Below, piece by piece: positions 11,325 through 61,455 of a stretch of DNA of 64,000 nucleotides; the stretch's first letter is position 1; the number at the start of each line of letters is the position of its first letter. The position numbers and the translations under genes were made by a program. Origin of the DNA: Fistulifera solaris (lineage: Eukaryota); the NCBI GenBank assembly GCA_030295235.1, contig AP026162.1, positions 248,001 to 312,000 of the forward strand, read 5' to 3'. The notes beneath the pieces are model-generated. The model was not told where the DNA came from and did not search any database. It saw nothing but the letters and a program-made list of their open reading frames with translations.

Positions 11325-11379
11325 TTTACTATAGCCCAAAGTGTATGCGACCTTTTCCATGACTGGATTTCAGTCATGA
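11325..11379 (+). promoter_or_regulatory. Solo copy of ~55-bp tripartite intergenic element (function unknown)
   Basis: TTTACTATAGCCCAAAGTG...CATGACTG-GATTT-CAGTCATGA, with 37 nt between ACTATA and CAGTCA. Confidence 0.6.
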
Positions 11380-11707
11380 GGTTCGATAATTTATCGTACC
11401 GGGAAAAAACATCTATGTGTAAATTAACACATGCCGAGTGCTATTCGCAAACACACTCGCAAACTGTTTCGCAACACTCGCAACGCTTCAAAAAAGGACA
11501 AAGACAAAATGAGGTGATTGCGGCGCATCACCTCTTCTATTCATTTTACCATACTTTATCAACACTGGTTGAAGGTCTAGTTAGCAACACACGTATTTGT
11601 CACTTACTGTAGTTGAGATTGGAAGAAGTTAAACGTCAACTACTCGGACAATAATATTAAGTATAACACAGGCACATTTTCGAGAGACTTTCGACGCACA
11701 ATTCATT

Positions 11708-13968
11708 ATGCAGGCTCCGCAGCCAATGGACATTGATCCTATAGACGATGGTCCCAGATCATTGTCAAGTCCTAACGGTAATTCATCTGACAGAACAAAT
11801 CATTTTCAGGTGATAACGCTGCCGGCAACGATTTCGAAGGAAGAGGACGCGAGGAAAGCTATTGATATGTTGCGCAGTGAAGACTCGACTGCACGTGTTT
11901 CTGCTGCGCATCGTCTCGACTCGATCGCGTCTGTTCTAGGTCCGGAAAGAACCAGAGATGTAAGCTTCTTTTTTCGCTACACAGTCATGCTCTGTTCATA
12001 TTGTTTTCTTTCTCACATTTGTTATGTTCTCAAGGAGTTGTTGCCATTTGTCACCGATGGAGTGGACGACGAAGATGAGGTACTACTAGCACTGGCATCG
12101 TCATTGGGGAGAATGGTGACTCAGGTTGGAGGCCCGACACAGGCTCATACTCTTCTGCGTCCCTTGGAGTTACTTCTTACTGTAGAAGAAACGCTAGTTC
12201 GGGAAACGGCAACAACGTCCGTTCAATCGATTGCTGACCAGCTGCCGCCTCAATATTTTCAGCATGACTATGCTGATATGCTTCGCCGTTTGGCATTACA
12301 GGAATGGTTCACGGCACGTATTTCTGCCGCGTGTCTAATCGCGACTGCGCACACCCGATTGGTCGACCCGGAACAGCGAAAGGAACACATTGATCTCTTT
12401 GTACGTCTTTGTAATGATGACACGCCGATGGTACGGCGTATCGCGGCTCGACACTTGGGAACAATGTTACAAGCAGTAGTAGAAGCTGATGGGAGAGATG
12501 TGCTCAAACCAGGTGGGATTGCTGTCGAAAAACTAGTTCCTTTGTATGAAACATTTGCTGCCCCAGATCAACCCGACTCGGTGAGGCTACAAACAGCAGA
12601 AAATTGCGTGGCGTTTGGCAATATTATATCGTCGCTAAGCCGTCAACAAGGACGGAGAGAACCGCTGCGTGCACACGAGATTGCGCTTCTGCAGCGCATT
12701 CTTCCGCTCATTGTTGCTACGATTGATGATCGATCATGGCGTGTTCGGTGGACAGCTGCCGCAAAATTTGCTGCAGTGATAACTGCATATGATGATTTAC
12801 CGGACGTTACGGATGTTATGGATACACTCATTCCTGCTTATGAAAAGCTACTTCAAGATCCCGAAGCAGAGGTGCGAACAGCTGCAGCATTGAATTTAGC
12901 AGATGTAGCACGATGTAAAGCTCGTGTGCCGATGGGAAATGCAACTACGTTAAATAGAGCATCCGATAGTACAAACGAAGATACTTCTGGTCCCCGTGTT
13001 ATCGTGGCTGAGCGGTTGGTAAAACGGCTTACCAGTTTAACGGAAGACGACAGCGAGCATGTGCGAGCTGCAGTGGCATTGGTTGCTACCGGCCTTGCTC
13101 CGGTACTAGGCCGCGATGCGACTATTATGCACTTGGTTCCGCCTGTACTATTAATGATACGTGATGCTGCTTCAGAAGTGCGATTGAACCTGATTTCGTC
13201 GTTGGCCGCTTTGAATGAAGTCATCGGAGTTGACCTGCTGTCGCAGTCATTGCTGCCGGCAATTTTGGATCTAGCGCAAGACGGAAAGTGGAGGATTCGT
13301 TTAGCCATCATTGAAAATATCCCTCTGCTAGCCGGGCAACTCGGAAAGGAATTCTTCACAGACAGACTAGCTGGTCTTTGCGTGGACTGGCTTGGTGATG
13401 ATATTGCTACGATTAGAAAAGCAGCTGCGAAGAATCTAGAGGTATGTTCCATTCCCTGGCCTTTCCTTTCTGCTTTAATTGTCTCAGCTCACTTCCCCGT
13501 GTTCCTACTTTTAGGAGTTAACGGCTCTGTTTGGCACAGAGTGGGCACTGGAACATCTTGTTCCTCCCATTCAGGATTTTCTTGGGAGTGAGCTTTACTT
13601 GCGCAGATTAACAGCTTTACAGGCATGCTCTCTGATGGCAACTAAGATGAGCCAAGACTCGGCACGGAATGAAATCCTACCCAAAATCCTAGACATGGCT
13701 TTGGATCGGGTACGTTTTCTGTAATTTTATTTCCTTATCAATCTTACCACGCTAACGTCAATGAGTTTTGCAGGTCGCAAATATTCGTTTCAATGTTGCC
13801 AGGGAGCTTGAACGAATCTCACCGCACTGCGGGGTTTCTACTTATGAATCACAAATTGTCCCTGTGATAACCGTACTTATGAACGACGAGGATCGCGATG
13901 TCCGCTTTTACGCCGAATCAACTGCCACTTCTTTGGAAGAAATGCTGGCTCAAGGTGAACGTTCTTGA
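11708..13968 (+). CDS. PPP2R1A: Protein phosphatase 2A scaffold (A) subunit, HEAT repeats
   Basis: LGPERTR.EL, DDEDEVLLALA, DDTPMVRR, DRSWRVR, VANIRFNVA, DEDRDVRFYA. Introns at 11960-12034, 13442-13514 and 13710-13773. Confidence 0.95.
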
Positions 13969-14185
13969 CGTAATTTTTAAAAAAATGTGAACTTGCAAAT
14001 ATTCTATAAGGCTTCAAAATTATTGTCATATGGTTACATCGATAGGATCGTCAGAGGTGCAGTCACAAACATACATCACATATAAAGGTAATTCTGCGAG
14101 AACCAGCAGGCACTTCAGACAACAAGATCTGAGTTCATTGTGGCAGGGTCAAATGAACTGTCTTTCCTAGACAGCATTGCATGGT

Positions 14186-16503
14186 TTAGAACAACCTGAA
14201 AAACTAGATTGTGATCAGACAGGACCAGAAAGGCACCTACCTTTTCCCAGAAACTAGCGCCGCATCATCGTCAACAATCGGAGCGTCCATTAAATCGAAA
14301 ACTTCATTTGTCGAGAGACGATCAGAATACGTTAACGTGGACGGCCTTTCCACTCCCCCCGAACTTAGATGATAGCTCCCCTAAATCAAGTGCGCTTTCT
14401 AGTTGCACATCACTCTTCAAGAGAAAGTCATCATCAAAAACGTCCAAAGCTAACGCCTCGATGGTGGTCGAGCGTCCTGATTTTAAAAGAGGCTCGGGTC
14501 TCGTCATCAAATCCATGGCGATTTCATCCAGCGTGCTTATCCTTGCCGTCGTCGATATAGGCTTAGGCTTTACCGTCGTTTCTGGTCCTAATGTGCTCTG
14601 CTCAAAGTTGCTGCTCAAAAGGTGCATTTCCTGTTCAAATTGCTCCGGATCCGTTCTCTTCGTAAAACCAGGGATGTACTGCTCTTTGAGACGGTTTGCA
14701 GCCGCACTACTGTCTCGGTTCAAAGCACATCGCTTCACGGAAGGACCCTGCAAACCGGGCTTTGTTTCTAACGTTTCATTCTGATTAGAAGTAGCGCGTT
14801 TCACCAAATCTGGCCTAGGAGCACCGGCTCGTCTTGGATTATCAGTCGATAGGCCTGGTAAAGCAGGAGGACCACCAACGCCATCACCTGAACTGTTCGA
14901 CCAACTTCTTGCAATTTCCTCATCCGCCGGATTTCGAGCGGACCAAGTTGACGCAACCACGGGGTCGACTTCGTAGCGTGGAGAAGGGGGGCCACTACCA
15001 GGTGTACTACCGCGTGAATTCGAAGCACCCTTGTTGTGTGTCTGGGTAGGAGATGGATATTGCATTAGCGAACTCCCACTGTAGTCACGAGCCGGCGCTG
15101 GATAACCGCCTTGAGGAGACTGAGGAGGTCCTCCACTATGATAGGGGTATGGTGGATATCCATTTGGCGGAGGCGGCCCCCAATGCCCGGGATACGCCCA
15201 CGGTCCAGAGTATCCCCTAGATGCTTCGCGAAAGGTTGTATACGGAATCGGATGACCGAGGGACACGTGCGGGAGCGGATTTTGACCTAAACTATGCTCT
15301 CGATCCCAACTAAAACCAGGTAAAGAGCCCCAACTTTCGTACCGACCCCCTGATGCCATGTGCTGATACGCAGCCGGGGGAGGTTGAGGCGGCGGACCTA
15401 CGCTCCCATAGCTTGGGTAACGGTAACCGGGTGGGTAAGCGCCCGGTGGCGGCGGGCCAAAGCTTCCCGTGCTGGTGATTCGCTCTTGTGACACGTCACC
15501 AGTGGATGTACTTCGAAAGGGATCCTGCCAGGAAAATCCTTCCAGCGCAATCTGTTCATTGGGTTTCAAATATTCACGACCAAGAGAATGGTCACGCGCA
15601 AGAACAGCTTTCGACGCGCCGCCTTTCTTTGCTCCATCATGTGACTTTGTTCCCTCCGCAAACTGAGTAGATTTCTCTTGCACTTCGTCTTCATCCGTCT
15701 TCATTATAGCAAAGGAATTTGCAAATTAGTCCGCCGCGAAAAATGGAAAAAACAAGATTGCAAAACACCCACTTACCGAATCGCCTCGTTCCGCAGCTCT
15801 TCGCTCATGCTCGAGATGTTGTCGAATCAGTGGGGCCTTTTCACGTAGCGCTTGACTAGTCTTTTCTCTGGCTTTCTTATCCCCTACATCATTCCATTTC
15901 TTTGTCTTTTCGTCAAATTTGAGAAATCGACCAGGGGGATCTTGATTTCTCCAAATACGGATGATATCCAGGGCCACCAAAGGTTTATCCAGACGTTTGC
16001 TGTTAACATAATCAATTTTGCGATCTTCCACCATCTTACGATACCGCTTGTTACCAAGATGATGATTTGTGCCGCCTGAAATACGAATGAAGAATGACAT
16101 GAGCATTCATTAACCCAACCCAAAAGATAGCATCCAAACAAAAAAATACTGACCCCCACGTCCAAAAAGGACATCATGATCGTGTACCTCGTCAACGTCT
16201 TTTAATGGATAATCTTTCCATCGTTCCTTCCTTTCCTTCTCTTCCTGAAGTCTCGCTTCTTCGTCAACACCGTCGTTCGCGACCGGAGGCTCCCCCTTCA
16301 TTATTTGCCTCTTCCATGTTGTCGTCTGTACTTTCCCCTTTACTCTCGTCAACACTTCCCGCTTCGCCACTCTCCAACGGTTCCCCTTCTTTATCGTCAT
16401 CGCTCAGCTTAGAAGTAACATCGGGTATGATCGCTTGTTCGTCCTCCGCGGTTGTCAACGCATCGTCTTGAATAATCGAATCATCTTGGTTGTTATTCGA
16501 CAT
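14186..16503 (-). CDS. DUF6824-domain protein with Pro/Gly/Tyr-rich tail
   Basis: HDVLFGRGG|GTNHHLGNKRYR...PPGRFL...KAREKTSQALRE. Introns at 16076-16153, ~15699-15776 and probably 14196-14240. Apparent frameshifts at C-runs 16292-16296 and 14355-14360. Confidence 0.8.
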
Positions 16504-17190: not shown

Positions 17191-17354
17191 AGAGAAATTT
17201 TTCAGAAGCCGGCCTATTTCCGGGTGCTCAAGTTAGCATTTAGGCTGTATAGGGTATAGGGCCCTTCCTCCTACTGTTTGCGATTATAGCAAAGGGCCTA
17301 ATGGCTGGTTTGTTGAAGGTCACCCGGAAATAGGCTGATTTCTGAAAGAATCTC
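17191..17354. mobile_element. Small MITE-like element with ~35-bp imperfect TIRs (possibly Mutator-like)
   Basis: TTTCAGAAGCCGGCCTATTTCCGGGTG pairs with CACCCGGAAATAGGCTGATTTCTGAAA. Flanked by the direct repeat CGGATGGC at 17182-17189 and 17355-17362. Confidence 0.65.
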
Positions 17355-17520
17355 CGGATGGCGATGATGTTGATGATGATGGAGATCGGAGCGACAATAT
17401 CCATCAGTTCGCTTGGTAGTGCAGTGAATAAACAACCTGTTGCCTTAGCTAGCTATCTCATTTGACGCCGTTGTTAAAGCCCCTGAAGAGAAAAGATCAC
17501 AAACCAAATAGCTGGATAGC

Positions 17521-23330: not shown

Positions 23331-23601
23331 AATACCACACTCCCACATGGAATTACCACACCCCCACTTTTTCTGGAGACGTGGAAAACCACTCTCCCAC
23401 ATTTTCTGGAAACGGGGAAAAACCATACACGCCCAGATTATTTTCTAAACACGTGAAAAAACCACACCCCCACATTTTCTGGGTACGTTGAATTACGTAC
23501 TATGTACCACACGCCCACATTACGTGAAAATACTACATACTACTTGTACTCCCCCACATTTTTTTGGAGATGTGAAAGGAAAACACCACATACGCCCAGA
23601 T
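23331..23601. repeat. Degenerate array of ~8 units of a ~33-bp palindromic repeat
   Basis: Units approximate ACCACACNCCCA(C/G)ATTTTCTGGRNACGTGAAAA, starting near 23334, 23355, 23388, 23422, 23461, 23506, 23546 and 23585. Confidence 0.75.
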
Positions 23602-24796: not shown

Positions 24797-24890
24797 ACGC
24801 CCAAGTCTGGGCGTGTGAAAACATCACCTCTCACAGATTTTCTGGGCACTTGAAAACACTAAACTTCCAGATTTTCTGGGAGCGTGATAA
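24797..24890. repeat. Three further units of the 23331-23601 palindromic repeat
   Basis: ACGCCCAAGTCTGGGCGTGTGAAAA, CTCACAGATTTTCTGGGCACTTGAAAA and TTCCAGATTTTCTGGGAGCGTGATAA. Confidence 0.6.
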
Positions 24891-27086: not shown

Positions 27087-27611
27087 TTCTTTTTTGCTAA
27101 GCGGGGGCAGATGCGCTTCAATCGCAGTAACCAGATTCTGGTAAAATTCAAGACTAAATTTCCTAAAGTCTTTACGATTGCAAAGCCCACGCTAGGCTAC
27201 AGATCGAAAGCTTTGCTTCGGAAAAAAATCTGGCATCGCGATAGGAGGCTAGAGTGTCGCGATATTTTCGACCTCATCGGCTTCCACCATCCCAAGCGTT
27301 CTGCTCGAAAGTAAGCTATTTATGTCAATATTAGTGTGCGCCTCATTACATCGAAAAACTAAAAATTTTGTTATTGTTATTACTGTGGACCAATGCAATG
27401 AGTTATGGACCATGATGTGTAGTTGTAGTTTCGACATTGCCACGACTGCTTTTCAGTCATGAATTATGATGTTGTTGAGGCTGCTCTTCAAAATGTGTTC
27501 GTTCTGATACCTTGCTATGCCATGATTGCAGTAACAGTCAACACCAATTTCATGAGACACGCCTCGAATAATCTTGATGTTTAGAATTCATGAGGTCGTT
27601 ATCCTCTATCT

Positions 27612-27666
27612 TTTACTATAGCCGTAACTGTAGATTACTTTTTTCACGTCTGCTTTTCAGTCACGA
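27612..27666 (+). promoter_or_regulatory. Solo copy of ~55-bp tripartite intergenic element
   Basis: TTTACTATAGCCGTAACTG...CACGTCTG-CTTTT-CAGTCACGA with 37-nt spacing. A second partial copy lies at 27441-27462. Confidence 0.6.
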
Positions 27667-32067: not shown

Positions 32068-32561
32068 CGTCAACGGTTGTGAATTGTCAGATAGATGATA
32101 GAAAAGGAACAAACATTAGTAGTTATGATCGATTTGTTGACTTGTATTGGTAGTGAGACGATGTTATTCCAAAAGCTTTTTATTTTTCTCGTCCTTTTTC
32201 ATTTCAAACTCAATAATGTCTAAAGTCTAAATGTCCCATCGCACGTCTTAATGACTCGCGACACTGATACTTGCTGTAGAAGGTTTTTTAAATGGTCTAA
32301 AGTGCCGAGTGCCGAGAAAAACTTCGACACGAATGAATATTTCAATCATGAACAAATTCACGTCTATCGTACCGGTTATCGAACTCGTTTCTCGTCCGCC
32401 GCAGCATTTTATTTTTTGCCAAAACGCCGCACAAACAAATAATGGGCCTTGTTGTGAGCATTCGTCTTTCGTATCTTTTCTCATTATTTCGCCACAGCAA
32501 ATCATAGTTTCTTCAAGATCTCTTTTAATTAGACTAATCTTGATTTAAAGCTCAATCAACC

Positions 32562-35640: not shown

Positions 35641-35697
35641 TCATGACTGAAAATTTCACTCTTGGCAAAAACGGACAACACTTTGATCCATAGTAAA
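35641..35697 (-). promoter_or_regulatory. Solo copy of ~55-bp tripartite intergenic element
   Basis: Reverse complement reads TTTACTATGGATCAAAGTG...CAAGAGTG-AAATTTT-CAGTCATGA with 39-nt spacing. Confidence 0.55.
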
Positions 35698-41542: not shown

Positions 41543-41790
41543 CGTTGCGATTTGACAAGGTATGTACCAAAAGACGTTTTATAATGCCATAAGCTACAAA
41601 ACGAATGAATGGGTTGAGTTCTCTGTTTGTGTCGTCCTTGTCCTTTCCAAGAAAACGAGGCCGGCGTTGGGAAGGAGACGCGGACGCGCACCTCTCTCGT
41701 ATACTTTGTACTCAAGGCCACGACATTTGAATTTTGGGCGCGATGGCGGGAGACAAAGCGCGCCGTCAACATTTCAACCTGACCAACAAT

Positions 41791-41843
41791 TCATGATTGA
41801 AACGCAGTCGTGGTTACAGTAAACAACACTTTGGATGATAGCT
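41791..41843 (-). promoter_or_regulatory. Solo copy of ~55-bp tripartite intergenic element
   Basis: Reverse complement reads AGCTATCATCCAAAGTG...CACGACTG-CGTTT-CAATCATGA with 37-nt spacing. Confidence 0.5.
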
Positions 41844-42188
41844 CGGAATGACGGCGTTCCGCCAAGGTTTAGACAAGAAATAAAGACGTGCATTAAAATA
41901 CTGTTGCAATACAATTCATTGTAATAGCGAATGAGACTCATGAACGGAGGTTATGCAGCAGTTCCAATCATCAGCAAAATCATTTTCGTGACGGAATGTA
42001 GTCGTGTGTCATGTACTTCATAGAGAATAGAGACGTCATTTTCGAAGTGGTACCTCGCTGTGGTACTCGACAAAAAGATAGGGGAAAGTGGAACGATTTA
42101 TTTTCTGTTTGTTCGCCTTCGAACTTCGAACCTTGTTACCTTTCATTTTATTCATCTGACAATTCTTCTATGTTACACTATAAATAGG

Positions 42189-43440
42189 ATGATCTTTGTC
42201 GAAAACATGTCGCGAGTCATTCGTAATACGCTTCGACGTGGGCGGACGGACCACCACAATGAAACTACGGAGAATGAAGAATCAACACTTCTGCGAAGAT
42301 CGAGCTACACACCATCGCTTTCCGGCACATACGAAGGATTTGAGCAATCTTTTACGGCCTTCCAGCTCTGTATTTTCCACGTGATTTGCTATTATATTAT
42401 TGCGGTTCTCTGTTTCAGCTATTTCTTCGAAAACTGGACTATTATTGATTCACTCTATTTCGCAACGGTTCTATTTACGACAATCGGCTTTGGTGATTTG
42501 AGTCCGTCAACTTGGACTGGGCGTATCTCGGTCATCTTCTTGGCGATATATGGTATAGGTTTGCTGGGGATTTTCCTCGGTATTGCCGGACACAACCTGA
42601 TGGAGTATCAAACCAAATTATGGGATCGACAACGAAAAGATGTCCGTAGCAAAATACTGCGCACCGTAGAACAAGCAGCGCTCGATAGAAAAGAGACTGG
42701 AGGCATTCAAGCGTCAGAACGATTTGAAAGCGAACGTGCAGTTAATGTTTCTTTGTTTCGGGATATTGCGCAAGTCGCACTTGCCGAAAGTCCCATTTTA
42801 TTTGTTGTTCTGATGGGTGGGGTAATGCTGGGACATGCGGAAGGATGGAACATGTTTGAAAGGTAAGCGCGCCAATAAATGGTGACATTGAAATATCAAT
42901 GTACGGTTCGACTCAAACGCTTATTTTAGTATCTATTTCACCGTTACAGCTGGGACTACCATTGGTGAGTTGTTAGTCTTTCCAAAGAGTGAAGTATGCT
43001 GTGCATCAGTTGCTAAAATAAATGATGTTTTCTCGGCAGGCTTTGGTGACTATCATCCAGATCATCCCCTGGTTCGACTTGCGTGTTGTTTCTTTCTTCC
43101 TCTTCTCGTGGCAGTTCTGGGGCAGTTTCTCGCTGCGGTTGCTTCGATTTACATGAAACGTCAACGCCGGCGTGCAGAGCTAAAGTTTCTTACTCGAACC
43201 ATGACCATTTATGACATGCAGGCTATGGACGAGAACAACGATGGTGAAGTTCAAGAATCTGAATTCCTTGCTTTCATGCTCGTGGCACTCAATAAAGTAA
43301 ACAAGGAAGAGATTGCGGAAATAATGTCACTCTTTGATAGACTAGACGTGTCAAAGTCGGGTACCATTGACATGAAAGACCTTGTTGTCAGTAAATCCGA
43401 GATCTTCCGTGGGGTACTGGGCGATTCTACCGTCCCATAA
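42189..43440 (+). CDS. Two-pore potassium channel with C-terminal EF-hands (TPK-like)
   Basis: Two TTIGFGD pore loops, the second assembled across introns 42863-42929 and 42965-43039. EF-hands DENNDGEVQESE and DVSKSGTIDMKD. Confidence 0.9.
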
Positions 43441-43634: not shown

Positions 43635-44690
43635 CTACTTCGAGTGAACACCGCCCTCCTTTGAAAAATATTTGTCATGGAGGTACTGTCCTGAGGTGGT
43701 TGGCTCATACTTGGGAGGGTTTTCTTTTGAGCAACATATATCAAGAGGGACGATGGGAACATCAAAACCTGGTTCGTAGAAGAAAGGTACGGAATACCTT
43801 TCCGATCCACCCTGAAGGACGACCCTATGCGGTGTCGAGCGAAACAAACCATTCGACAAACGCTCCAACATATCTCCCAAGTTCACCACGAATGCACCAT
43901 TCCGATGAGGAACATCGATCCATTGACCAGTCTTTAGCAACACTTGCAAGCCAGGCGTTCCATCCGTACGTAACACTGTAATCACCGGCCCATCTGTGTG
44001 TTCATCAGCTCCAAATAATCCTTCCTCCGGTACACTCTTAACATCTCCATAGTGAAGCAAACTTAATGCAGTCATCGGGTCCTCAAACGTTTTGTCGAAT
44101 GAGCCCTTTGGTAATCCCAGAGCTAGGGCCAAGCTGAAAATAAAGTAGGATTGCGATAAGTCAAACAAGCAAGTAGAACTGCCATTGATGTTACTTGTCA
44201 CGGATAAACATACTCACAGCTGCACCAATCGAAAGCAAAGCTCACACATCTTATCATGGTACGATTCTATCACGCTGCGGAATTTCTCACAATCAGCCAT
44301 GTCAGGAGTGAGCTCAGGCGAAGGCATCACATTTGACCCCTTGAGCTTTGCAACGTTATACTCAGGGTGATCAGCAGGGAAGTGTCTTCCTACATAGAAC
44401 CCTTCCTTGGTGTCGCCGTCCGCGTCGGCTCCATAAGCGATCTTTCCGTCCAGGGTGAAGTATCCTCTGATGAGAGCAGGGTTGCTGAGCGCTTTCTTGG
44501 ACGGCTTCGAGAGACTGAAAAAGAGCTTGGATTGCTCAAAGACATCAGTGATTAGCTCCTCCTCAATTCCATGATCCTCGAGGTAGAAAAAGCCAACTTC
44601 GATACATGCGGAACGAAGGCGTTGCACGGTTTCCTCCGAATCGCTGTCGCGTAGAGAAATCGTAGGGATCGCGTCATCTTGAATACACAT
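43635..44690 (-). CDS. 2OG-Fe(II) oxygenase (IPNS/DIOX-like)
   Basis: IPTISL, AC..VGFFYL..HG, HTD, VVNLGDMLE..SNG.F.ST.HRV, RYS.PFF. Intron 44134-44217. Confidence 0.92.
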
Positions 44691-45038
44691 GGTGGGAGTG
44701 GAGCTAACTCAGCTGCAACTTTTGATCGTTCAGAGAGGCAGTTATTGATGCTAGGATGGCACCGTTCAAAGCAAGTATCCTTTTCAGTACAGATCTCTTT
44801 TTGTGCATCGTGCATCGGCCGAAGGTTGATACCCATCCGTCGAGCCTCGTCGAGCCTCGTCGAGACCCGCACACAATAGGCAAAAACGACGTGAGGCGAG
44901 GAAGAATCACGTGCTTGAAAGATATCCTTGATCCTTGCGTCTTAATTCTCAATGCTTTGAGAAGGAATAAAACAAGACTTGTCTTATTGCAGGCAAAATA
45001 CGTTCGTCATCTTCATTATTTGTACGCTTTACCTGGTA

Positions 45039-45636
45039 CGCAACTACTATTTGCGTCGAAAAGCATCCGTATCGTCGACTGCAATTTTTACTATAATGGT
45101 AAAGTCTTGGTTCTACGCGATCGCGACTTAATTTCAGTCACTTGAAACTTGAAACGCCACCTAAGCAATGAGAGCAGCTAAAATGTCCACAAACAAAAGC
45201 GCGAAGTGTATAATCAAATGCCATGGAAAATTCTTCAATCGAAACGCAACTATTTGCAACGAAAAGCATCCGTATCGTCGACTGCCATTTTCACTATAAT
45301 GGTAAAGTGTTGGTTCTACGCGATCGCGACTTAATTTCAGTCACGATCAACATAATGAAACAATATTGAAACGCCACCAAAGTGGTCCTGGAAACGAAAG
45401 CGCGAAGTGTACAATCAAATGCCATGGAATACCCAATATATAATCTAGCTATCATCTTCAATCGAAACGCAACTATTTGCGTCGAAAAGCATCCGTATCA
45501 TCGACTGCAATTTTCACTATAATGGCAAAGTGTTGGTTCTACGCGATCGCGACTAAATTCAGTCACTTGAAGCTTGAAACGCCACCTATTAAGCAATGAG
45601 AGCACCTTAGTTGTCCACAAACAAAAGCGCAAAGTG
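45039..45636. repeat. Tandem array of three ~200-225-bp units, each containing the tripartite element
   Basis: Marker AAGCATCCGTATC at 45061, 45264 and 45487. Each unit has ACTATAATGG(T/C)AAAGT, the palindrome CGCGATCGCG and TTCAGTCAC. Confidence 0.9.
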
Positions 45637-45924
45637 GAGTTTGTGGAGTTCGAAAAGATCATTTATCGGGACTCATTTATGGTCGACTATTCATCCTTTT
45701 TAAGGCACATATCAATCGTTGCAAAAAGTAATATGCGCTTTCGATGAACTTCAAAGGAGGAGAAAGAGGAACAATTCGACTCGTAGAAATTCCCAAGAAC
45801 TTTACTTAGCCCCGCATAGCGTTTCCGGCGCCTCACGAATTGCAATCAAACATGATTATCTTTACTATCCTATTCTTCTAATTGATGTCCCAACACGACT
45901 TTGATTTTGATTGCTACCCAGTCA

Positions 45925-46225
45925 TGTCCAACATCGACCCATTTCAAAGTCTTTGTCAGCACTTGCAATAAGGAATATTGTAATCCCATACAAATCTGTA
46001 TGTTCACCAGCACCATACAGTCCTTCATGCACTTGACGTCGGCATAACAAAGTAGAGCTAGCAAAGTGAGCGGGTCTTCGAAATAATTATCAAAATCAGA
46101 GCGGTGGCCCACCTGACAAGAGGACCGCGACGAGATAAGAAAGACAAACATCACTGTTCCAGTTTGCATCGATCGCTGTACTCCCTGTTGTACGAGTCGA
46201 AAGCTCAATGCACATTTCTGGGTGG
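45925..46225 (-). pseudogene. Degraded paralog of the neighbouring 2OG-Fe(II) oxygenase
   Basis: Fragments in mixed frames: CALSFRLVQ, FDNYFEDPLTLLALLCYADVK, EGLYGAGEHTD and LQVLTKTLKWVDV. These match CELCFRLVQ, FDKTFEDPMTALSLLHYGDVK, EGLFGADEHTD and LQVLLKTGQWIDV of 43635-44690. Confidence 0.8.
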
Positions 46226-46345
46226 TACGTGGGGTACTGGGCGATTCTACCTTCCCATAGGGTAGACGCTGACCAGATAATCTAGAGTCCACGGACCACC
46301 CGCCACAAAATTCTCTTGTTGAACAATCCGCTTTCACAAACTGTT

Positions 46346-47942
46346 TCAATTAAATCGAGGACTCGCCGCCAATCCCCGTGCCCCGGTTCCGTGCATCATG
46401 TTCATATACTGCCAGCGTTGACGCCGTTCTTCGCCTTCAGGATCATTCCCCACACGACGATAAAACTTTTCTTGGTCTAAATCCCTGCTAGAAAATTGGG
46501 ATCGGCTACTCGTCCAGCTGCTGTCCAGACTTGGTCTTCGGACTGATTCTGTGACAAAGAACTTGCTCATTTCAAGTTTTTCGGCTGAAGTAACATCTAT
46601 GCAGGGGGGTGAACGTCCAGACTTCAATGTTTCTGACTTGAAATGTTTCGGTGTGATCACCAGCACCGCACAAACCCGGACTACCGAAACTTTCACTCGG
46701 GCTCGTTGTGCCCGTAATCAAATCATCGCTTAGTGCAAGAGCGAAGCCCATTTTCTCCGTCATTTTAGCAAGTTCGTGTAGATTGTCGAATTCATCAAGA
46801 GATGGTGCATGATCATCTCCTCCAACAGCTAAAATATCGTGCCTGCAGATTTGCATCATCCCATCAGCAGGACCGCTATAATGATAGACATCAATTTTTG
46901 ATTCGAGAGCAGCTTGATCAAAGAGTGAGTAGCACTTGGTGAGTCTTGACTTTTTCATCCTCCATACAAACGAAGGCTTCGAACCAAAGAATCCAAAATG
47001 GTTCCCCCAAGCTTCCGAGGTAAAGCTTCCAAAGACGTCTCCTTTGTTCGTTTCAATTGCCAGTATAGTGTTGGGGGACGCGCGACAATACATCTTTAAC
47101 GTCTCGAGCGACGCTCCGTCGCGAATTAACGAAAACTTCAACCAATAATTTTGGTTCATCAACGGAGATGGTATATGGCTCATGAGAGCGTCCATCAGCG
47201 GGGGCGACAACACATGGGGCTGTGCACTCGTATCGTCCGCTGATGTTCCGATAATCTTAAAGGCGTTGTGGTCCGATGTATTTCCGTTCAAGATATCAGC
47301 AATCGTTTCGGTACGATTATAGTCAAGCCCAAAGTCTTTGGCGTATTCGTCTTTCAGAATCTCCCACGCGGAAAAGTCACTCCGAATCGTATCTTCATCC
47401 CAAGACGAATCACTGGAACAAGAATCCTTATCGTCTTTTCGTACTTCTTCGTCGGACGGAATATCGTCGCCGTCTTCTTCCAACGACAGTTGCTGTCTCC
47501 AGGGTTGAGCCGTCTGTGTATCCTCGACGCCGTGAAGGGAGCTCCTTATAACTAATGCTTTGGGATTGACTCCATCTTCGTGCGCTTTCCATAAATTCCA
47601 TAACATATATTTTCTTCTGTTTGGCTTTAGATCGCGTTTGTTGTTGAGCAGATCGTCAGGAATGGAAAACAGAACATCATCATCGAGCTTTCTCGCGGCC
47701 TGCTGAAGAAGTCGAGTTTTCTCACTGGCCTCTCGGGCATATGTATCGGGCGAGTTGGACGGATCTACATCATCCACCAGAAGTGCATGCAGAAACACTT
47801 TTTCGGCGGACGATAGGGACGGAATACGACGGAGCACTTTGGTTTGTAGTAGTTGCCGAGCTTCTTGCACTTGTTCGGATAGTTTGTCGCTCGACGAAAG
47901 ACTGGAAGAAAGATGTTGTAAAGTAGCTGCTTCTCCGCTCAT
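46346..47942 (-). CDS. TLDc-domain (OXR1-like) protein
   Basis: W.LKFSL.RDGASL.T, ILAIET..GDVFGSF, FFG....FVW, FALAL.DDL..G, F.V.NIEVWTFTP. Extra base in G-run 46604-46609. Confidence 0.88.
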
Positions 47943-51241: not shown

Positions 51242-51295
51242 TCATGACTGAAGTGCAGTCGTGGTTAAGTTACTTTACATTTGGAGCTATAGTAA
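51242..51295 (-). promoter_or_regulatory. Solo copy of ~55-bp tripartite intergenic element
   Basis: Reverse complement reads TTACTATAGCTCCAAATG...CACGACTG-CACTT-CAGTCATGA with 37-nt spacing. Confidence 0.6.
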
Positions 51296-51531: not shown

Positions 51532-52713
51532 ATGACATCGCCGGAAGAGAGTGCGGATAGATTGACTACGCCGGGTCCGACGATAACTTCTCAAATGCTG
51601 ACGCTCGGACTAGATGCGAGTGACGGTCGATCGCCAAAACGTTCGGTGGAAATGGTCGACAGCACTAACGAATCAGAACGAAATACCTGGTGGAATAGAG
51701 CTTTTCATTCCACGGATGGAGGTTTGGATAGTCGCATAGCAGCAGCGGTGCCAAGCGAGTCAGATAGACCGCGTATAGTAGTGGATGAAGTCGACACAAA
51801 TTATTCTTACGAGCAGATGGGAGAGCGTTTGACGGTTAATACACACACACATGAAAATGTCAATGATTCTAGGAAAGGCCGAGCAATGATGCAGCAGGGA
51901 ATACGAAAAGTTGGAGGTACTTTTAAGAAACTGCAAAAAACGTGGATTCTTAATTCGCACACCAGACGCTCCTTGTCGGACCGAAGCCATATGATTTTAC
52001 GAGATGGGCATTTTTACTATAGGGACATGGAAAGTGCGGTTCCCTCTCGCCATGATGTTGAATCTCAATGCAATTATTTTCAAGCTCCTTCGAGTGCCGC
52101 AGACACCGAACTGAAACGATATCGGGAAAGATTTGAGGATCTTAATAAAGATGCCAAGTGCTTGGAGCTCGATCGATTACTCGACAACGACTTGCAACTG
52201 GATCACACGGAAGACGTGGAGACGAACGAAGTGCAACGAGATGCGCGTAGTAGTATCATTCACACTGCTCAAACATCGTCTCTCTATTATGAGGTTGAGG
52301 GAGGTGGGATGACGCTTCTTTGTTTACCACGAGATCACGTAAGACTCATTATGGATCCAGAGCTACAAACTGGCACATTGGCTGTTGAGCAATGGAGACG
52401 TGAGGATGAGACCAGATACGAAGTTTCTTTGTCTCAAAGGCCGTCTTGCTCGTTTTGCCCAAACTGCAAAAAAGAATTTACGTTCGGTAGAGATTTCTCG
52501 ATTCACCCTGATTTACGGTACACCCTGGTGGTCAACGACGATTTGTACCGAAACCTCATGTCAGAGTTGAGCAGCCATCTTACCGAACCGTACTGTGGCA
52601 TCAACCGATGGTGTCTGGACGACGAAAAAGTGGATATTCGGGTGGCAATTGGTTTTCTAATCATTGTCTTTTCACTTATGTTTGCTACAACTATTGTGTG
52701 GCCAACTCAGTGA
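51532..52713 (+). CDS. Hypothetical tail-anchored protein
   Basis: Intact 393-aa ORF with a single C-terminal hydrophobic helix (VAIGFLIIVFSLMFATTIVW). Confidence 0.75.
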   Translation: MTSPEESADRLTTPGPTITSQMLTLGLDASDGRSPKRSVEMVDSTNESERNTWWNRAFHSTDGGLDSRIAAAVPSESDRPRIVVDEVDTNYSYEQMGERLTVNTHTHENVNDSRKGRAMMQQGIRKVGGTFKKLQKTWILNSHTRRSLSDRSHMILRDGHFYYRDMESAVPSRHDVESQCNYFQAPSSAADTELKRYRERFEDLNKDAKCLELDRLLDNDLQLDHTEDVETNEVQRDARSSIIHTAQTSSLYYEVEGGGMTLLCLPRDHVRLIMDPELQTGTLAVEQWRREDETRYEVSLSQRPSCSFCPNCKKEFTFGRDFSIHPDLRYTLVVNDDLYRNLMSELSSHLTEPYCGINRWCLDDEKVDIRVAIGFLIIVFSLMFATTIVWPTQ

Positions 52714-52739
52714 TGACCATTCGTCTAAAAACCACACTG

Positions 52740-56716: not shown

Positions 56717-58223
56717 ATGAAGATCTCGTTCGCAGCAATTTCGTGCCTGGCTCTGTCGGCCACTTCGGCGGCTGCCTTCGCGCCCAGCTCTCCGCATCGG
56801 ATCTCCACAGAACTAAATGCGTCGCCGGAATGGCTGCAAAAGGCACAGCAGACATTAGTCACGGCGGGTGTTGCTGCAAGTCTGTGGTCGGCGCCCGCGT
56901 TTCTGGACTCCACAGGTGTCTTTCCGACAACAACTTCGACCGTCACCGCCAAGGAAATGGCCAGTGGAAGTGGCTCGCGAGTGAACAAAGACGCCGAGTC
57001 TCTTCTACGTTACGGCCTTCCCATAAATAACAAGGAGGTGTGTATTGTCATTGATGAGCAGCGCCTCGTCGGTTCACCTGCGAGCTCGCCTGATTTTCCT
57101 GATTATTTGTTGTGATCTCATACTTTCCCTTTACTGAATAGGTTCGAAAGCTACAGGTTGTTCTAGAGGATGTCAAGTACGATATTCAATCGAAGCGAAA
57201 GGGAGCCGCATTGTCGGGTAGCCAGAAAGCCAAGGCCATTTTAAACAGCAAAGATACGGAGAAGATGAAAGCCGCGTGTCGTGAGCCAGATGTCTGTCAA
57301 AAGTATCTCACGGCCATGATACAAGAAATGGACCCTCTTTCGGCCGCATTGAAAGAATCGCAGGATACATTCCAGGGCAGTGATCAAGAGCGAGCTGCCT
57401 TGGATAAAGCTTATGAGGCACAAAACGAAGCTGTAGCCAGTCTTTCTCTTTTGGAAGAGCAGATGGTGCCAAAAGGATACAAAGTCCCCGTTCCGGAAGA
57501 ATACAACGACTTGCCACAATTACAGGGACGCGCTACGGTCTCAATGACTTTGGTGAAACCCAACAAAGCACCTTTCCAGGTGGACGCCGTGTCCTATCCC
57601 GAAGCGAAAATGAAAATGGTGATTGATGGTTACAATGCTCCTGTTACAGGTGGAAACTTTTTGGAGTTGGTTCAGAAAGGCTTTTATGACAAAATGCCGA
57701 TTCAGCGTTCGGATGGATTTGTAGTGCAAACGGGAAGACCCGAAGGCAATGCCGAGGGATATGTTGCTCCCGGAAGCAAGAGCGTAGGGAATGGAAAGAA
57801 TGGCGAACGTCTTATTCCTCTCGAAATCTTTGTGAAAGGGGATAAGGCTCCCATTTATGAAGTTACTATTGAGGACGAAGGGCGAGGCGGAGAAGCGACA
57901 GTCATTCCTTTCAGTAGTTATGGTGCCATGGGATGGGCGCGAGAAGAGTACGACCCCAATTCCGGAAGTTCTCAATTCTTTTGGCTTCTCTTCGACTCAG
58001 ACTTGACACCGGCGGGGAAGAACGTTTTGGATGGCAGATACCCATGGTACGTATCGACGTAGCTCTCGTGTAACTTGATGCTTGCTTTTAAAGCTCACCG
58101 CTCTGCTTTAGTTTTGGGTACGTGGTGGAAGGCGCTGACTTTTTGAAGGCAGTGGAAGAAGGCGATATCATCGTCTCAGCTAAGGTGACAGAAGGTGCCG
58201 AGAACTTGATCTTGCCGAAGTAG
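56717..58223 (+). CDS. CYP38: Thylakoid-lumen cyclophilin (CYP38/TLP40-like)
   Basis: AAAFAP plastid leader plus a lumen signal, SLLRYGLPI, LPQLQGRATV, IDGYNAPVTGGNF, FVVQTG, SQFFW, LDGRY.CFGYV. Introns 57038-57141 and 58047-58111. Confidence 0.88.
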
Positions 58224-58900
58224 TCAAGAACGCGCTACAGCTCGACTGAGACACAAAGTTGCACAGTCGACAAGTATTTCAAGTTCATTGTGATGGTTGC
58301 CGCATTGTAACGAGCGGCGCTACTCGACCGCTGAATCACTTACTAGGGGCTATTTTAAAATTTAATGTATCAGCTTAGCTACAGACTGACCGCTAGACTA
58401 GTACCTATCAAAAGAATCTTGATGCAGTAGTCTTAGGGCTCTGCCACAAAGAAAACTCATCTGGCTCTGAACGCCAACACAACATTGCCTGCTCTGTAGA
58501 ACGTAACTGCCCGTAGGAGATGATGATTGTCTAAATAATATATCAAAATGAAATGCGTAAAGTGTGGGATGATTTTTTCGTGCGACTGGTCGATTTTCCA
58601 GGTTCTTTTAAACTTCTCGAATAACGAACGCCCTTCAATAAACAGAAAGACAATCAGAAAAAGTGAGAACGACTGAACAGCAAAGAGAGGTAAATCTCGT
58701 CAGGAGCAAAGGTACAGGTCATACTCTTCCTATCAAAACTCAATCTCATCATTCATCGGCACGATATAATGAGTGTCTATCTGACATTTTGCCAAATCAA
58801 CTCGGTTTATTCGGTTTCCGATTTGTGTAACGTAAGCGAGTCTCTTTTCATAATCATTCTGTTTCGATCGCCAACTCTTTAAAGACGATGAACGTACATT

Positions 58901-59592
58901 TTAATCCACCAACATTTGCTTGGCAATCTCATCTCGTTTTTCCTTTCCAAACAGTTGTTCTCCCAGTGTGAGTGCAAATTGAATCGATGTACCGGGACCT
59001 TGCGACGTGATCATATTCCCGGTCACCACGACACGTTCTTTGGAGTAATTGGGAATCGTTTCTTGAAAATGAGGTGCGGGATAACATGTCGCGGCGGCTC
59101 CCTCTTCGATCAACCCGTGCGTCGCCAAGGCGATCGCCGGTGCCGCACAAATCGCACCGAACAGTTTATTGGAACTTTTTGTTTCCGCAGCAATTCAATG
59201 AGTGGCGCACAATCCCGTAAGGCTTCCGCCCCAGCCACACCACCGGGCAACACAATCAAGTCCCAGTCGCGGGTCGCCGCGTCTTCGATGACTTGATCGG
59301 CTTGCACTTGAATGCCTCGACTCATCGTACACAGCAATTCTCCGTTCGGATTTACGGAGGCTGTAGTAACTTTGGCACCGAATCGGGTTAATGTATCAGT
59401 AATGCAAGTTGTTTCGATTTCTTCACTCCCATGGGCGATGGGAACCAAGACCTGTTTAGTCGTCATGCTTCGAGCGGTGGAAGAATAAAATGTGGATGAT
59501 AACTGCGATGACTGGAAAGCGGAACTGAAGCTTAGAAAAGCGAGAAGAGGAGTGTTTCGAAAAAGCAAGAGTCTCTTTGCGAGGAATGACAT
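58901..59592 (-). CDS. PARK7: DJ-1/PfpI (YajL-like) protein with organellar leader
   Basis: VPIAHGSEEIE, DLIVLPGG..GA, AICAAPA (restored by adding one base to run 59176-59180), ATCYP and ITSQGPGT. Confidence 0.9.
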
Positions 59593-59898
59593 ACTAGTAA
59601 AGTAAAAAATGAGAAGCATACAATTACCGGGTAAATAATGAGGTGCGCCGGCGGTGCAGCGTGATAAGCGGTGTATGCGTGTATGCAGTGTTTTTGTGGT
59701 TGCGAGGAGTGATGTGGAGGAGTTTTAACTCATGACTGACAAATCATGACTGAAAGCGCATTATAAGTCGGTCCGCCAGTCAGTCGCCTCGATCTACTGC
59801 TTTTTCACCCCACAAAACAAAATATTAGCTGAAGATTACTTACCGTGACGAAACATTACCATACCTCCTCGTCTTAACAATACTTTCCTGCTTATTGC

Positions 59899-61097
59899 AT
59901 GCGACGCATTTTGTTGGCGGGACTTCCTTCTTTGTGCTTGGCCTTTCGACCTATTTCTTTGCCCCGATCGCGGAATCATCATCATCGTTTATCACGCTTC
60001 ACCATGACAACAAACATGTTCAAACGCGCCAAATTATCACTTGACGAAGATCCCGAATCCAGTCACAGTAAGACTGTTGCCGTACATTCCGGAACCTTTC
60101 AAGCCGACGAAGCTATGGGTGTTTGGATGTTGCGACAACTCCCTTCCTACCGCCACGCCAAGCTCATTCGCAGTCGGGAGTTGCAAGTCTTGGAGTCAAC
60201 CGATATTGTTTTGGATGTGGGTGGAGTGTACGATCACTCCAAATTACGCTACGATCATCATCAAAGAGGTTACGAAGAGTATTTTTATCCCAAGAAGATA
60301 TTGCAGCCGGGAGGAAGTTCGAAAGAAGAACCGCGTTGCACGAAATTAAGTGCGTCGGGTCTCATTTACAAGCACTACGGAAAGCAAGTCATCCAAACTT
60401 ACTATCCTGAATTGACAGAAGAGTATCTAGAGTTGGCTTTTCATCGAATTTACGACACGCTTCTCGAAGCACTCGACGCGATTGATACCGGAGTGGAAAT
60501 GGCACCCGAAGGTGTCCAATTGGTGTATTCCGATGCTACCGGACTCGCGCGTCGTGTCAGCCGTCTCAATCCCCGGTGGAACGAAGTCACTGAAACCGGC
60601 GAAAGTCCCGATATGGATGAACGCTTTTTGCAAGCGGTAGAGATGTGCGGTCAGGACTTTTTGTCGGTCATGACGGCTATTGTCGAAAGTGACCTGCCCG
60701 CCCGAACGCACGTGGTACAAGCTCTTTGAAGCGCCATGAAATTGACGAGTCGGGTGAAGTTATTAAATTAGAAAGTGGAGGATTGCCTTGGAAACATCAC
60801 TTGTATGATTTGGAAAAAGAAACAAACATTCCCAAATTGATCAAGTTTGTGCTTTACACAGATACGTCCGGTATGTGGAGAGTTCAAGCGGTGACAGTGG
60901 AAGGCAAAAACTTTGAGAACCGATGTAGTTTACTGGAAGCCTGGCGAGGAGTACGTGATGATGAGCTTGTATCTATCTCAAATATTCCAGGGGCGCGCTT
61001 TGTCCACGCCGCCGGCTTTATCGGTGGCGCAGACACCTACGAGGGAGCTTTGGAGATGGCGAGGGAGACGCTGAAACAACAACCGAGTGAATCATGA
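59899..61097 (+). CDS. MYG1: MYG1 family exonuclease (UPF0160)
   Basis: HSGTFQADE, DVGGVYD, RYDHHQR, TKLSASGLIYKHYG, DAIDTG, WRVQAV, WRGVRD, FVHAAGFIGG. Frameshift in T-run 60725-60727. Confidence 0.93.
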
Positions 61098-61398
61098 ACT
61101 ATAAAAGGTTAAAGGCGCTACATCAAAGAACTATCTTGATACTCATGGTCTAATAATGTGTCCATGTTCATCTTCTATTGTTCACTTCCAAGTTTCGTAT
61201 AGATCTTAATGTACATGAGGCACGACTACATTCAGTCATGAGTTCATTTTATTACGACGAGACAGCCTATCATTAATAATCAAAATAAACTCGAAGCTCG
61301 ATGAGCTACATAACTGTATAGGCACCTTCAATAGCATTGCAAGGCACGGCGCCTTGGTTATCAGCGTCGTAAATCACGTTGCATAGTTTGTGTCCGTA

Positions 61399-61455
61399 TT
61401 TACTATAGACCTAAAGTGAAGATTACTTTTTGCCATGACTGCATTGCAGTCACGA
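61399..61455 (+). promoter_or_regulatory. Solo copy of ~55-bp tripartite intergenic element
   Basis: TTTACTATAGACCTAAAGTG...CATGACTG-CATTG-CAGTCACGA with 39-nt spacing. Confidence 0.6.

What the first reader, a model, noticed from the sequence alone, without database searches (positions are those of the whole stretch)
11325..61455. Dispersed ~55-bp tripartite intergenic element with fixed spacing and an internal N5 palindrome
Seen: six solo copies, all intergenic, at 11325-11379(+), 27612-27666(+), 35641-35697(-), 41791-41843(-), 51242-51295(-) and 61399-61455(+). The consensus is TTTACTATAG-n3/4-AAAGTG-n~13-CAYGACTG-N5-CAGTCAYGA. The distance from ACTATA to CAGTCA is 37, 37, 39, 37, 37 and 39 nt, although the spacer sequences diverge. 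The inverted repeat keeps a 5-nt spacer in five of six copies and in the partial copy at 27441-27462. Four copies point toward a gene start roughly 50-330 bp away (PP2A-A, P4H, the 33708 gene, SLBP). Inference: conserved boxes and spacing with variable linkers suggest a protein-binding platform, such as a dimeric factor plus partner acting in promoter, insulator or origin function, rather than neutral decay of a MITE. No TSDs or TIRs were seen around the solos.
Basis: partly seen in the sequence, partly recalled or inferred. Interest (0 to 1): 0.8.

Follow-up and report, generated by a model that had tools for sequence, protein, structure and literature searches.

The report
Core of dispersed diatom tandem repeat
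The six look-alike stretches are real, but they are the best-preserved part of a roughly 220-base repeat unit that lies in thousands of short rows between the genes of a diatom and travels inside small mobile elements, so they look more like repeat DNA with a weakly protected hairpin than a dedicated gene switch.

Summary
The six copies and their spacing are real, but they are not solos. The 55-bp element is the 3' core of a ~220-bp monomer. The strict hairpin has 891 genome hits against 0 for the control; extrapolation gives about 6,000 cores. Arrays tend to read core-(body-core)n, with a period of 203-244 bp in 58 of 59 cases, even where bodies do not align. Two arrays in this window are missing from the sister subgenome. 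One ends in a TIR shared with a TTAA-flanked, Kolobok-like MITE. Fixed spacing is partly a selection effect: 8 of 31 unbiased copies have a perfect hairpin. There is no orientation bias toward gene starts (18 versus 16). Only the hairpin arms are conserved beyond expectation at orthologous sites (17 of 303 changed versus about 11%). Best reading: a mobile-element-borne, satellite-like repeat whose hairpin is probably a protein-binding or recombination site. The mobilising enzyme was not found. The scan noted this family before on other DNA of this genome.

The parts
11215..11379 (+). Decayed monomer; core (box1, box2, 8-5-8 hairpin) at 11321-11379. The hairpin ends about 330 bp before the ATG of a HEAT-repeat (PP2A-A-like) gene
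   Evidence: in the sister subgenome the boxes and the hairpin are split apart
27382..27666 (+). Dimer with a 204-bp period: first core ending at 27462, then body plus core 27466-27666
   Evidence: both cores lie at the orthologous site
32292..32353 (+). Possible strongly decayed core (uncertain)
   Evidence: 13.4 bits with the six-copy HMM, control maximum 8.3; not found by the core HMM at 9 bits
35641..35731 (-). Decayed monomer end; core with a 7-nt centre and a damaged left arm
   Evidence: the hairpin is present but the boxes are interrupted in the sister subgenome
41791..42016 (-). Eroded dimer: earlier hairpin at 41986-42016, then body plus core 41967-41791
   Evidence: (I4); the sister subgenome has a monomer in the opposite orientation here
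45046..45928 (+). Subfamily-C element: three cores (45084-45140, 45284-45346, 45510-45565) plus a ~290-bp 3' part ending at a degenerate hairpin
   Evidence: the same 3' end occurs at G000:C1:1265 kb; absent from the sister subgenome; 197 unit matches with 40 of 41 candidates scored
51242..51301 (-). Core without a recognisable body; both hairpin arms identical in the two subgenomes
59730..59752 (-). Two right-arm remnants (uncertain member)
   Evidence: only 5-6 bits, below the control maximum
61198..61455 (+). Eroded dimer: partial core ending at 61241, then body plus core 61302-61455
   Evidence: both present at the orthologous site
61517..61534 (+). TIR that closes the subfamily-B element; shared with an 816-861-bp MITE that has TTAA on both sides
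61650..63705 (-). Subfamily-B array of about 9 units of ~225-235 bp with a 678-bp higher-order repeat; each unit carries a variant core; the array starts at box1
   Evidence: absent from the sister subgenome; 154 matches with 40 of 103 candidates scored

Best explanation
The 55-bp element is the last and best-kept part of a ~220-bp monomer of a high-copy, dispersed, satellite-like repeat superfamily in a Fistulifera solaris-type allopolyploid diatom. A weaker upstream box (ACGTCGAA) extends the shared module to about 100 bp. SHOWN: monomers form short head-to-tail arrays that tend to begin at box1 and end at the hairpin. Several subfamilies share the core and the period but not the body. Arrays sit inside units with their own conserved flanks that recur at unrelated loci and differ in presence between the two subgenomes. 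One subfamily ends in a TIR shared with a TTAA-flanked MITE. INFERRED: the units were spread by transposition as non-autonomous DNA elements. Arrays grow and shrink by unequal exchange or slippage between cores, which are direct repeats, and this leaves one core behind; the 'solos' are such collapsed or eroded arrays. The hairpin is most likely a double-stranded binding or exchange site, first needed for the element's own propagation and still under modest constraint at fixed sites. The enzyme that moves the units was not identified.
For: 891 strict hairpins against 0 control, many at ~220-bp steps. Whole-unit alignment of 25 units from 13 arrays. 66 core hits in 514 kb against a control maximum of 7 bits. 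Period of 203-244 bp in 58 of 59 neighbouring cores. Bodies of subfamilies A, B and C do not align (z 0.1-0.9) while the upstream-box region does (z 2.0-4.7). Array ends are phased: 20 of 42 5' ends at box1 and 22 of 42 3' ends at the hairpin end. Shared flanks: an A-type 5' motif is followed within about 100 bp by a core or unit in 11 of 12 hits; B has 5' and 3' modules; the C 3' end is shared by two loci. The B and C arrays of this window are absent from the sister subgenome. Copy number differs between homoeologs, for example 3:1 and 2:1. Three full MITEs have a TIR and TTAA on both sides and share B's 3' module. No orientation bias. Precedent: short satellite arrays scattered with and inside non-autonomous elements (PMC8268682, passages; PMC3411249, abstract).
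Against: No autonomous partner was found. PF14214, PF05970, PF20700 and PF00589 gave 0 matches (insensitive searches, and two controls did not ring). The resident piggyBac and one Crypton share no sequence with the core. No TSD was found around cores, and B carries the TIR at one end only. Empty-site junctions are too diverged to read exactly. Excess conservation of the arms at fixed orthologous sites and within B (0.016 and 0.021 against 0.070 in the body, 31 units) is not explained by element-level selection alone. The phasing count leans on subfamily B (27 of 42 rows, related by descent, 12 found through their 3' module); family A alone gives 3 of 12 for 5' ends (not significant) and 6 of 12 for 3' ends. 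The narrow period across unalignable bodies is unexplained.
Confidence: 0.55

Rival explanations
1. Host cis-element: a dimeric factor binds the hairpin dyad and partners bind the upstream boxes, acting in promoter, insulator or origin function; the repeat only distributed the sites.
For: Arms changed at 17 of 303 sites against about 11% expected (binomial p=0.0008, but about 13 locus pairs are counted in both directions). 0 of 73 loci lay in ORFs. 5 of 62 lay in convergent gaps against 22 of 106 background gaps (p=0.023 against 18% by length). Median 240 bp to the start ahead against 394 bp to the start behind (p=0.069). The arms contain ATGAC/GTCAT half-sites like those of bZIP factors (recalled).
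Against: No orientation bias (18 versus 16), no fixed distance to starts, boxes 1 and 2 not constrained, hairpin spacing variable, 12 of 33 cores lost or unalignable in the sister subgenome. A bias toward promoter-side gaps is also what insertion preference would give (inference).
Confidence: 0.15
2. 3' end of non-autonomous rolling-circle elements (Helentron/HINE-like): box1 is the 3' subterminal repeat, the hairpin is the terminator, and arrays and chimeric flanks arise by read-through and capture.
For: Box1 starts about 55 bp before the hairpin end, within the 38-60 bp given for HINE 3' subTIRs (PMC4067079, passages). No TSD. The C element ends at a hairpin remnant at two loci. Flanks are modular and include half of a MITE.
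Against: No inverted 5' partner of box1: 8 near-matches in 82 upstream flanks, two of them whole inverted cores and the rest scattered. No T-run after the hairpin. In B the core is internal. No Rep/helicase was found (insensitive).
Confidence: 0.12
3. Site-specific recombination cassettes: the hairpin plus upstream boxes form an att-like site for a tyrosine recombinase. Body-plus-core circles of about 220 bp are excised and re-integrated at other cores, building core-(body-core)n arrays; a minimum loop size fixes the period.
For: Architecture and phased ends; a first core that often differs from internal cores; a narrow period with exchangeable bodies.
Against: The core has no similarity to the ends of that element. 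Arms are 8 bp and the centre 5 nt, against 11-13 bp and 6-8 nt for typical sites (PMC3212892, passages). The centre differs within arrays and varies in length. No 5-bp direct repeat beyond chance at core-bounded ends.
Confidence: 0.12
4. RNA-mediated element: the core is a LINE-type 3' tail (stem-loop plus a short terminal repeat), a tiny LTR or part of a retrozyme.
For: A 7-nt duplication follows 9 of 71 last cores against 2 of 48 internal ones (92 exact copies in the genome). The two arm mismatches are G-U-compatible on the minus strand (read).
Against: No Rfam family at E up to 1 in six array loci apart from one chance sRNA hit. No tRNA in 8 loci. No core downstream of 3 of 3 reverse-transcriptase loci checked, out of 26. 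Folding z-scores are weak, from +0.9 to -3.3. No compensatory changes in 18 hairpins. No TSD. B continues about 500 bp past its last core.
Confidence: 0.05

Closest known systems
Scattered short satellite arrays within or beside non-autonomous elements (Crassostrea gigas satellitome, PMC8268682, passages; Tribolium TCAST-like elements, PMC3411249, abstract)
   Same: Short arrays of a near nucleosome-sized monomer spread over the gene-rich genome; partial monomers, dimers and arrays; some embedded in units with conserved flanks, others standing alone.
   Different: Here the conserved boxes lie inside every monomer and not only at the element ends, different subfamilies keep the core and the period while swapping the body, and no Helitron partner was found.
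Helentron/HINE and DINE-1 (PMC4067079, passages)
   Same: A conserved last ~60 bp made of a short box and a stem-loop; central tandem repeats; no TSD.
   Different: No inverted 5' subTIR partner and no T-runs at the hairpin end; the box-plus-hairpin module is itself the repeated part; no Rep/helicase found.
Kolobok transposons and KolobokP (PMC9587614, passages)
   Same: The MITE that shares B's 3' module has TTAA on both sides and GA...TC (RR...YY) ends. KolobokP has the same formal layout of repeat-(internal-repeat)n with solos.
   Different: B has the TIR at one end only; the core has no TIR of its own and no TSD; no Kolobok transposase was detected. Only subfamily B shows this link.
CryptonS tyrosine-recombinase elements (PMC3212892, passages)
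   Same: No long TIR, no TSD, tandem copies, proposed circular intermediates; reported from a diatom.
   Different: No 5-6-bp terminal direct repeat beyond chance; no similarity to the resident element checked; dyad geometry of 8-5-8 instead of 11-13/6-8.

Membership tests
Dispersed satellite-like short arrays (element-associated) | Head-to-tail monomers of constant length in many short arrays across chromosomes | tested here: met
Dispersed satellite-like short arrays (element-associated) | Arrays embedded in units with conserved flanks at unrelated loci | tested here: met
Helentron/HINE | Short box 38-60 bp from the 3' end, followed by a palindrome | tested here: inconclusive
   The geometry fits if the hairpin is the end; it is terminal in C but internal in B
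Helentron/HINE | Inverted 5' subTIR matching the 3' subTIR | tested here: not met
   8 scattered near-matches in 82 upstream 700-nt flanks
Helentron/HINE | Insertion in TT with T-runs at both ends | tested here: not met
   The first base after the last hairpin is T in 3 of 67; exact empty sites could not be read
Helentron/HINE | Autonomous Rep/helicase partner | tested here: inconclusive
   PF14214 and PF05970 gave 0 matches, but the searches were insensitive
Kolobok (the 816-861-bp MITE and the end of subfamily B) | TTAA on both sides | tested here: met
   3 of 3 MITEs with both TIRs; duplication not confirmed on an empty site
Kolobok (the 816-861-bp MITE and the end of subfamily B) | 5'-RR ... 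YY-3' termini with TIRs | tested here: met
   GA...TC in the MITE
Kolobok (subfamily B as a whole) | TIR at both ends of the array-bearing element | tested here: not met
   B's 5' module has no TIR in 22 loci printed
Kolobok | DDD/E transposase partner | tested here: inconclusive
   PF20700 gave 0 matches and its control did not ring; the choice of this family as a proxy is recalled
KolobokP | Terminal direct repeats that carry their own TIRs and TSDs | tested here: not met
   No TSD beyond chance around cores; core ends are not inverted repeats of each other
Crypton | 5-6-bp terminal direct repeats | tested here: not met
   4 of 48 against a control rate of 0.108
Crypton | Ends shared with an autonomous recombinase element | tested here: inconclusive
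   No similarity to the one element checked; others named in earlier notes were not fetched
TRIM / solo LTR | 4-6-bp TSD around elements and solos | tested here: not met
TRIM / solo LTR | Primer-binding site and polypurine tract beside the repeats | tested here: inconclusive
   None seen by eye on either strand of the A and B consensus; no formal scan
SINE with LINE-type tail / retrozyme | Small-RNA head or ribozyme | tested here: not met
SINE with LINE-type tail / retrozyme | Tail shared with a LINE | tested here: inconclusive
   0 of 3 RT loci checked, of 26 listed
Core promoter (TATA plus initiator) | Fixed orientation and distance to the gene start | tested here: not met
   18 versus 16; 109-641 bp
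Core promoter / insulator / origin | Protein occupancy or activity in vivo | not testable with these tools
   needs footprinting, start-site mapping and reporters

The most novel reading that the evidence does not exclude
A minimal cassette system in a eukaryote: ~220-bp units with exchangeable bodies share an att-like or origin-like core, are cut out as small circles and re-inserted at resident cores by a recombinase or Rep supplied in trans. The thousands of resulting hairpins have been partly taken over by the host as a genome-wide binding platform, which would explain both the fixed period and the slow change of the arms.
Probability: 0.1. Interest if true: 0.7.

Novelty: new member of a known kind. 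Interest (0 to 1): 0.32.

Why it matters
On the best reading this is an abundant, apparently undescribed repeat superfamily that occupies a sizeable share of the intergenic gaps of a compact diatom genome. It has to be masked or accounted for in promoter-motif studies. It also supplies ready presence/absence differences between homoeologous promoters for testing homoeolog expression bias. Two features remain odd and testable: the period stays at 203-244 bp while bodies are replaced, and the hairpin arms change about half as fast as expected at fixed sites. If circles or a binding protein were found, it would show a new route by which small repeats spread or become regulatory.

Tried and rejected
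Relatives elsewhere: two exact-pattern scans of metagenome contigs gave 0. One scan of viral contigs gave 2 isolated hairpin matches, not followed up. Breadth outside this organism is therefore unknown.

Expression: no RNA holder was listed on record. Contigs of two runs guessed to be RNA gave zero depth in the bins 41700-42363 and 45020-45683; this is not used as evidence.

Partner enzymes: Helitron_like_N, PIF1, Mutator-like and phage-integrase families gave 0 matches. The integrase search missed recombinases that earlier notes report in this genome, so these blanks are weak. MULE gave one marginal hit, not followed. The piggyBac near the C2 array is a separate 3.14-kb family without the core. 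The Crypton-type dimer junctions show no core. Three RT loci show no core downstream.

Readings considered and dropped: Helitron1 ends (5'-TC, 3'-CTAG), suggested by a few flanks, did not hold up when more loci were read. Cores as TIRs of one element were dropped because orientations do not pair up. TATA plus initiator was dropped because box1 is often CTATGG or CTATGA and distances vary. CpG decay as the source of the arm variants is unlikely, since CpG sites are no more variable than others.

Superseded or limited analyses: one search had orientation errors and was replaced, in which a few phases are still misassigned (for example the window's B array). A larger homoeolog sample could not be obtained, so the constraint test rests on 514 kb.
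Full report
Observation. All six copies are at the stated places. Counted on the printed sequences, the gaps between the ACTAT box and the right arm are 37, 37, 39, 37, 37 and 39 nt; five copies have a 5-nt centre and 35641 has 7. The hairpin pattern with up to 2 mismatches has 11 strand-matches in the window against 0.03 expected. An HMM from the six copies also finds 27433-27469, 61198-61245, cores in the 45-kb array and cores in the 61.7-63.6-kb array (the latter at 11-18 bits); the best of 20 simulated windows scores 8.3 bits. The window is a gene-dense eukaryotic sequence. Its nicastrin clusters at 90% with a protein named from Fistulifera solaris, and the genome holds a second, collinear copy of the region at 85-91% identity, as expected for an allopolyploid.

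What it belongs to. The strict hairpin has 891 matches in the 51.7-Mb genome against 0 for the reversed pattern, many in runs about 220 bp apart. The box1-box2 pattern has 685 against 17. A core HMM gives 66 hits in 514 kb of contiguous sequence (control maximum 7 bits), a body HMM 14; extrapolated, that is about 6,000 cores. Neighbouring cores are 203-244 bp apart in 58 of 59 cases. At least three subfamilies occur in the window. C lies at 45.0-45.9 kb (197 unit matches, 40 of 41 candidates scored; depth about 750 against 8-36 in the other bins in run X2). B lies at 61.5-63.7 kb (154 matches, 40 of 103 candidates scored). Bodies of A, B and C do not align (z 0.1-0.9), whereas the region holding an upstream ACGTCGAA box does (z 2.0-4.7); of all 15 pairs of six unit types, two bodies align clearly (z 3.5 and 6.5).

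Architecture. Self-alignment of 42 arrays (one more gave no result) puts 20 of 42 5' ends within -20 to +5 of box1 and 22 of 42 3' ends at the hairpin end. This leans on B (17 of 27 and 16 of 27), whose copies are related and 12 of which were found through their 3' module; A gives 3 of 12 and 6 of 12, C 0 of 3 and 0 of 3. The common layout is core-(body-core)n. Arrays have their own flanks. An A-type 5' motif (12 exact hits) is followed within about 100 bp by a core or unit in 11 of 12. B has a short 5' module and a ~500-bp 3' module that ends in a TIR (14 exact hits). Three of those loci are complete 816-861-bp MITEs without cores, with the TIR at both ends and TTAA outside; TTAA with RR...YY ends is the Kolobok signature (PMC9587614, passages). 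B has the TIR at one end only. The C element ends at 45928 just after a degenerate hairpin, and a copy at another locus ends at the same base.

Turnover. Against the sister subgenome, cores are orthologous at 27441/27612, 51242 and 61211/61399, split at 11325, interrupted at 35641, and inverted at 41791. The C array and the ~2.2-kb B element are absent. Elsewhere homoeologs differ as 3:1 or 2:1 cores, the outcome expected from exchange between direct repeats (inference). Of 33 anchored cores of 18 bits or more, 12 were missing or unalignable in the homoeolog. Junctions at 20% divergence could not be read to the base. A 5-bp direct repeat flanks 4 of 48 core-bounded loci against a control rate of 0.108.

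Raw divergence between homoeologs is 0.064 and 0.076 in the arms, 0.13 and 0.15 in the boxes, 0.22 in linkers, 0.26 in the loop and 0.20 in flanks; fourfold-degenerate sites give 0.205. Picking a copy because it matches the consensus can halve the rate, so the fair benchmark is about 0.11. On consensus-matching sites in 21 cores (12 dropped as above; about 13 locus pairs counted both ways) the arms changed at 17 of 303 (0.056), box1 at 16 of 158, box2 at 9 of 95, loop at 14 of 81, linker at 39 of 175 and body at 184 of 900. Only the arms beat the benchmark. Dropping the unalignable pairs favours conservation, and the high body rate may reflect misalignment. Within B (31 units, one per array) arms vary at 0.016 and 0.021 against 0.070 in the body. 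In 9 A units picked on the body, the left arm is 0.07, the right arm 0.21 and the body 0.16. Picked on upstream boxes only, 8 of 31 non-B copies have a perfect hairpin and 18 of 31 match at 11 or more of 17 positions; the loop has its own consensus and no compensatory change appears. Of 73 loci, 0 were inside ORFs and 11 lacked a flanking ORF. The other 62 were 23 divergent, 34 tandem and 5 convergent, against 22 of 106 background gaps convergent (p=0.023 against 18% by length). In tandem gaps 18 point toward and 16 away from the start; distances ahead run 109-641 bp (10th-90th percentile) (genes taken as ORFs of 130 codons or more). The smaller homoeolog-validated set agrees: 6 versus 5, and 0 of 21 convergent. 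So there is a mild promoter-side bias, no polarity and no fixed distance.

Mechanism. Shown: monomer family, arrays, shared flanks, presence/absence between subgenomes, one TIR end, modest constraint on the arms. Inferred: spread as non-autonomous DNA elements, array change by exchange between cores, solos as collapsed or eroded arrays, and the hairpin as a binding or exchange site. I give this 0.55. Rivals are a host cis-element (0.15), a Helentron-type 3' end (0.12), recombinase cassettes (0.12) and an RNA-mediated element (0.05). Against Helentron: no inverted 5' partner (8 scattered near-matches in 82 flanks) and no T-run after the hairpin (features from PMC4067079, passages). Against Crypton: no similarity to the junctions of the tandem element at G000:C1:1.295-1.301 Mb, whose 6-bp repeat at three junctions I confirmed (features from PMC3212892, passages). 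Against RNA routes: Rfam, ARAGORN, folding and three RT loci gave nothing. The resident piggyBac is unrelated. Searches for Helitron, PIF1, Mutator-like and integrase families were blank but insensitive.

Literature. The closest precedent is short satellite arrays scattered with and within non-autonomous elements (PMC8268682, passages; PMC3411249, abstract and outline). Searches listed no description of this family; the library lacks most subscription papers. Passages of PMC5935921 report promoter motifs biased between subgenomes but not this element; its supplementary motif table was not opened. Passages of bioRxiv 10.1101/2021.11.10.468027 mention unclassified repeated elements between tandem genes in a supplementary figure that I could not see and that may bear on novelty. 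PMC4686930 (passages) gives the diatom initiator-like motif TCAHW, too short to discriminate. Earlier notes of this scan describe what appears to be the same family in other windows of this genome with differing readings; I used them as leads only.

Verdict. A real, abundant repeat core. It is a new member of a known kind, interest 0.32. The constant period with exchanged bodies and the slow-changing arms are the points still worth a test.

Noticed in passing
window 23334-23577 and 24827-24890: Arrays of a 33-34-bp repeat with a CAGA-N3-TCTG palindrome. The motif was not found in the sister region C2, is common in C3, and lies just upstream of the A-type 5' motif in four loci.
   Followed up: partly
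L013, L023, L033, L034, L040, L082, L084, L101, L123, L185: A ~80-bp palindromic mini-element recurs at many loci, often close to the arrays.
   Followed up: no
L183, L184, L185; L098/L099: A young 3.14-kb piggyBac, 99.5% identical in three copies, plus an internally deleted 1.3-kb copy; unrelated to the core.
   Followed up: partly
L169/L170, L173/L174, L176/L177: An 816-861-bp MITE with TIRs, GA...TC ends and TTAA inside long T/A runs, Kolobok-like; no transposase found.
   Followed up: partly
window 41791-42016 versus G000:C2:272.4 kb; L008, L037, L042, C3:495.9-496.6 kb: Cores occur in closely spaced inverted pairs, and the 41.8-kb copy is inverted between subgenomes, which hints at rearrangement at the hairpin.
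   Followed up: no
92 places in G000: A 7-nt duplication after the hairpin creates TGAGTCA, an AP-1/GCN4-type bZIP site (label recalled); it is more frequent after last cores (9 of 71) than after internal ones (2 of 48).
   Followed up: partly
hairpin arms, genome-wide: The left arm is mostly CACG and the right arm CATG or CACG, so the dyad is imperfect. The mismatches would be G-T/G-U wobbles only on the minus strand.
   Followed up: partly
window 61470-63900: The B insertion moves the 61399 core about 2.2 kb away from the next gene start, which lies only about 160 bp from it in the sister subgenome: a natural test pair for expression.
   Followed up: no
window 43635-44708 and 45870-46349: A second, broken-looking copy of part of the 2-oxoglutarate dioxygenase gene lies beside the C element and overlaps its 3' end.
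   Followed up: no
window 17200-17347: A 27-bp inverted repeat with 94 nt between the arms, in an intergenic gap.
   Followed up: no
window 52013-52055: Box1- and box2-like sequence without a hairpin inside a coding frame; its score is below the control maximum, so probably chance.
   Followed up: no
L192-L194: Tandem ~3.1-kb element with a 6-bp repeat at all three junctions and subterminal GTGCAC palindromes; no link to the core.
   Followed up: partly
L189: This RT locus looks like telomerase reverse transcriptase rather than a retroelement (motif recalled).
   Followed up: no
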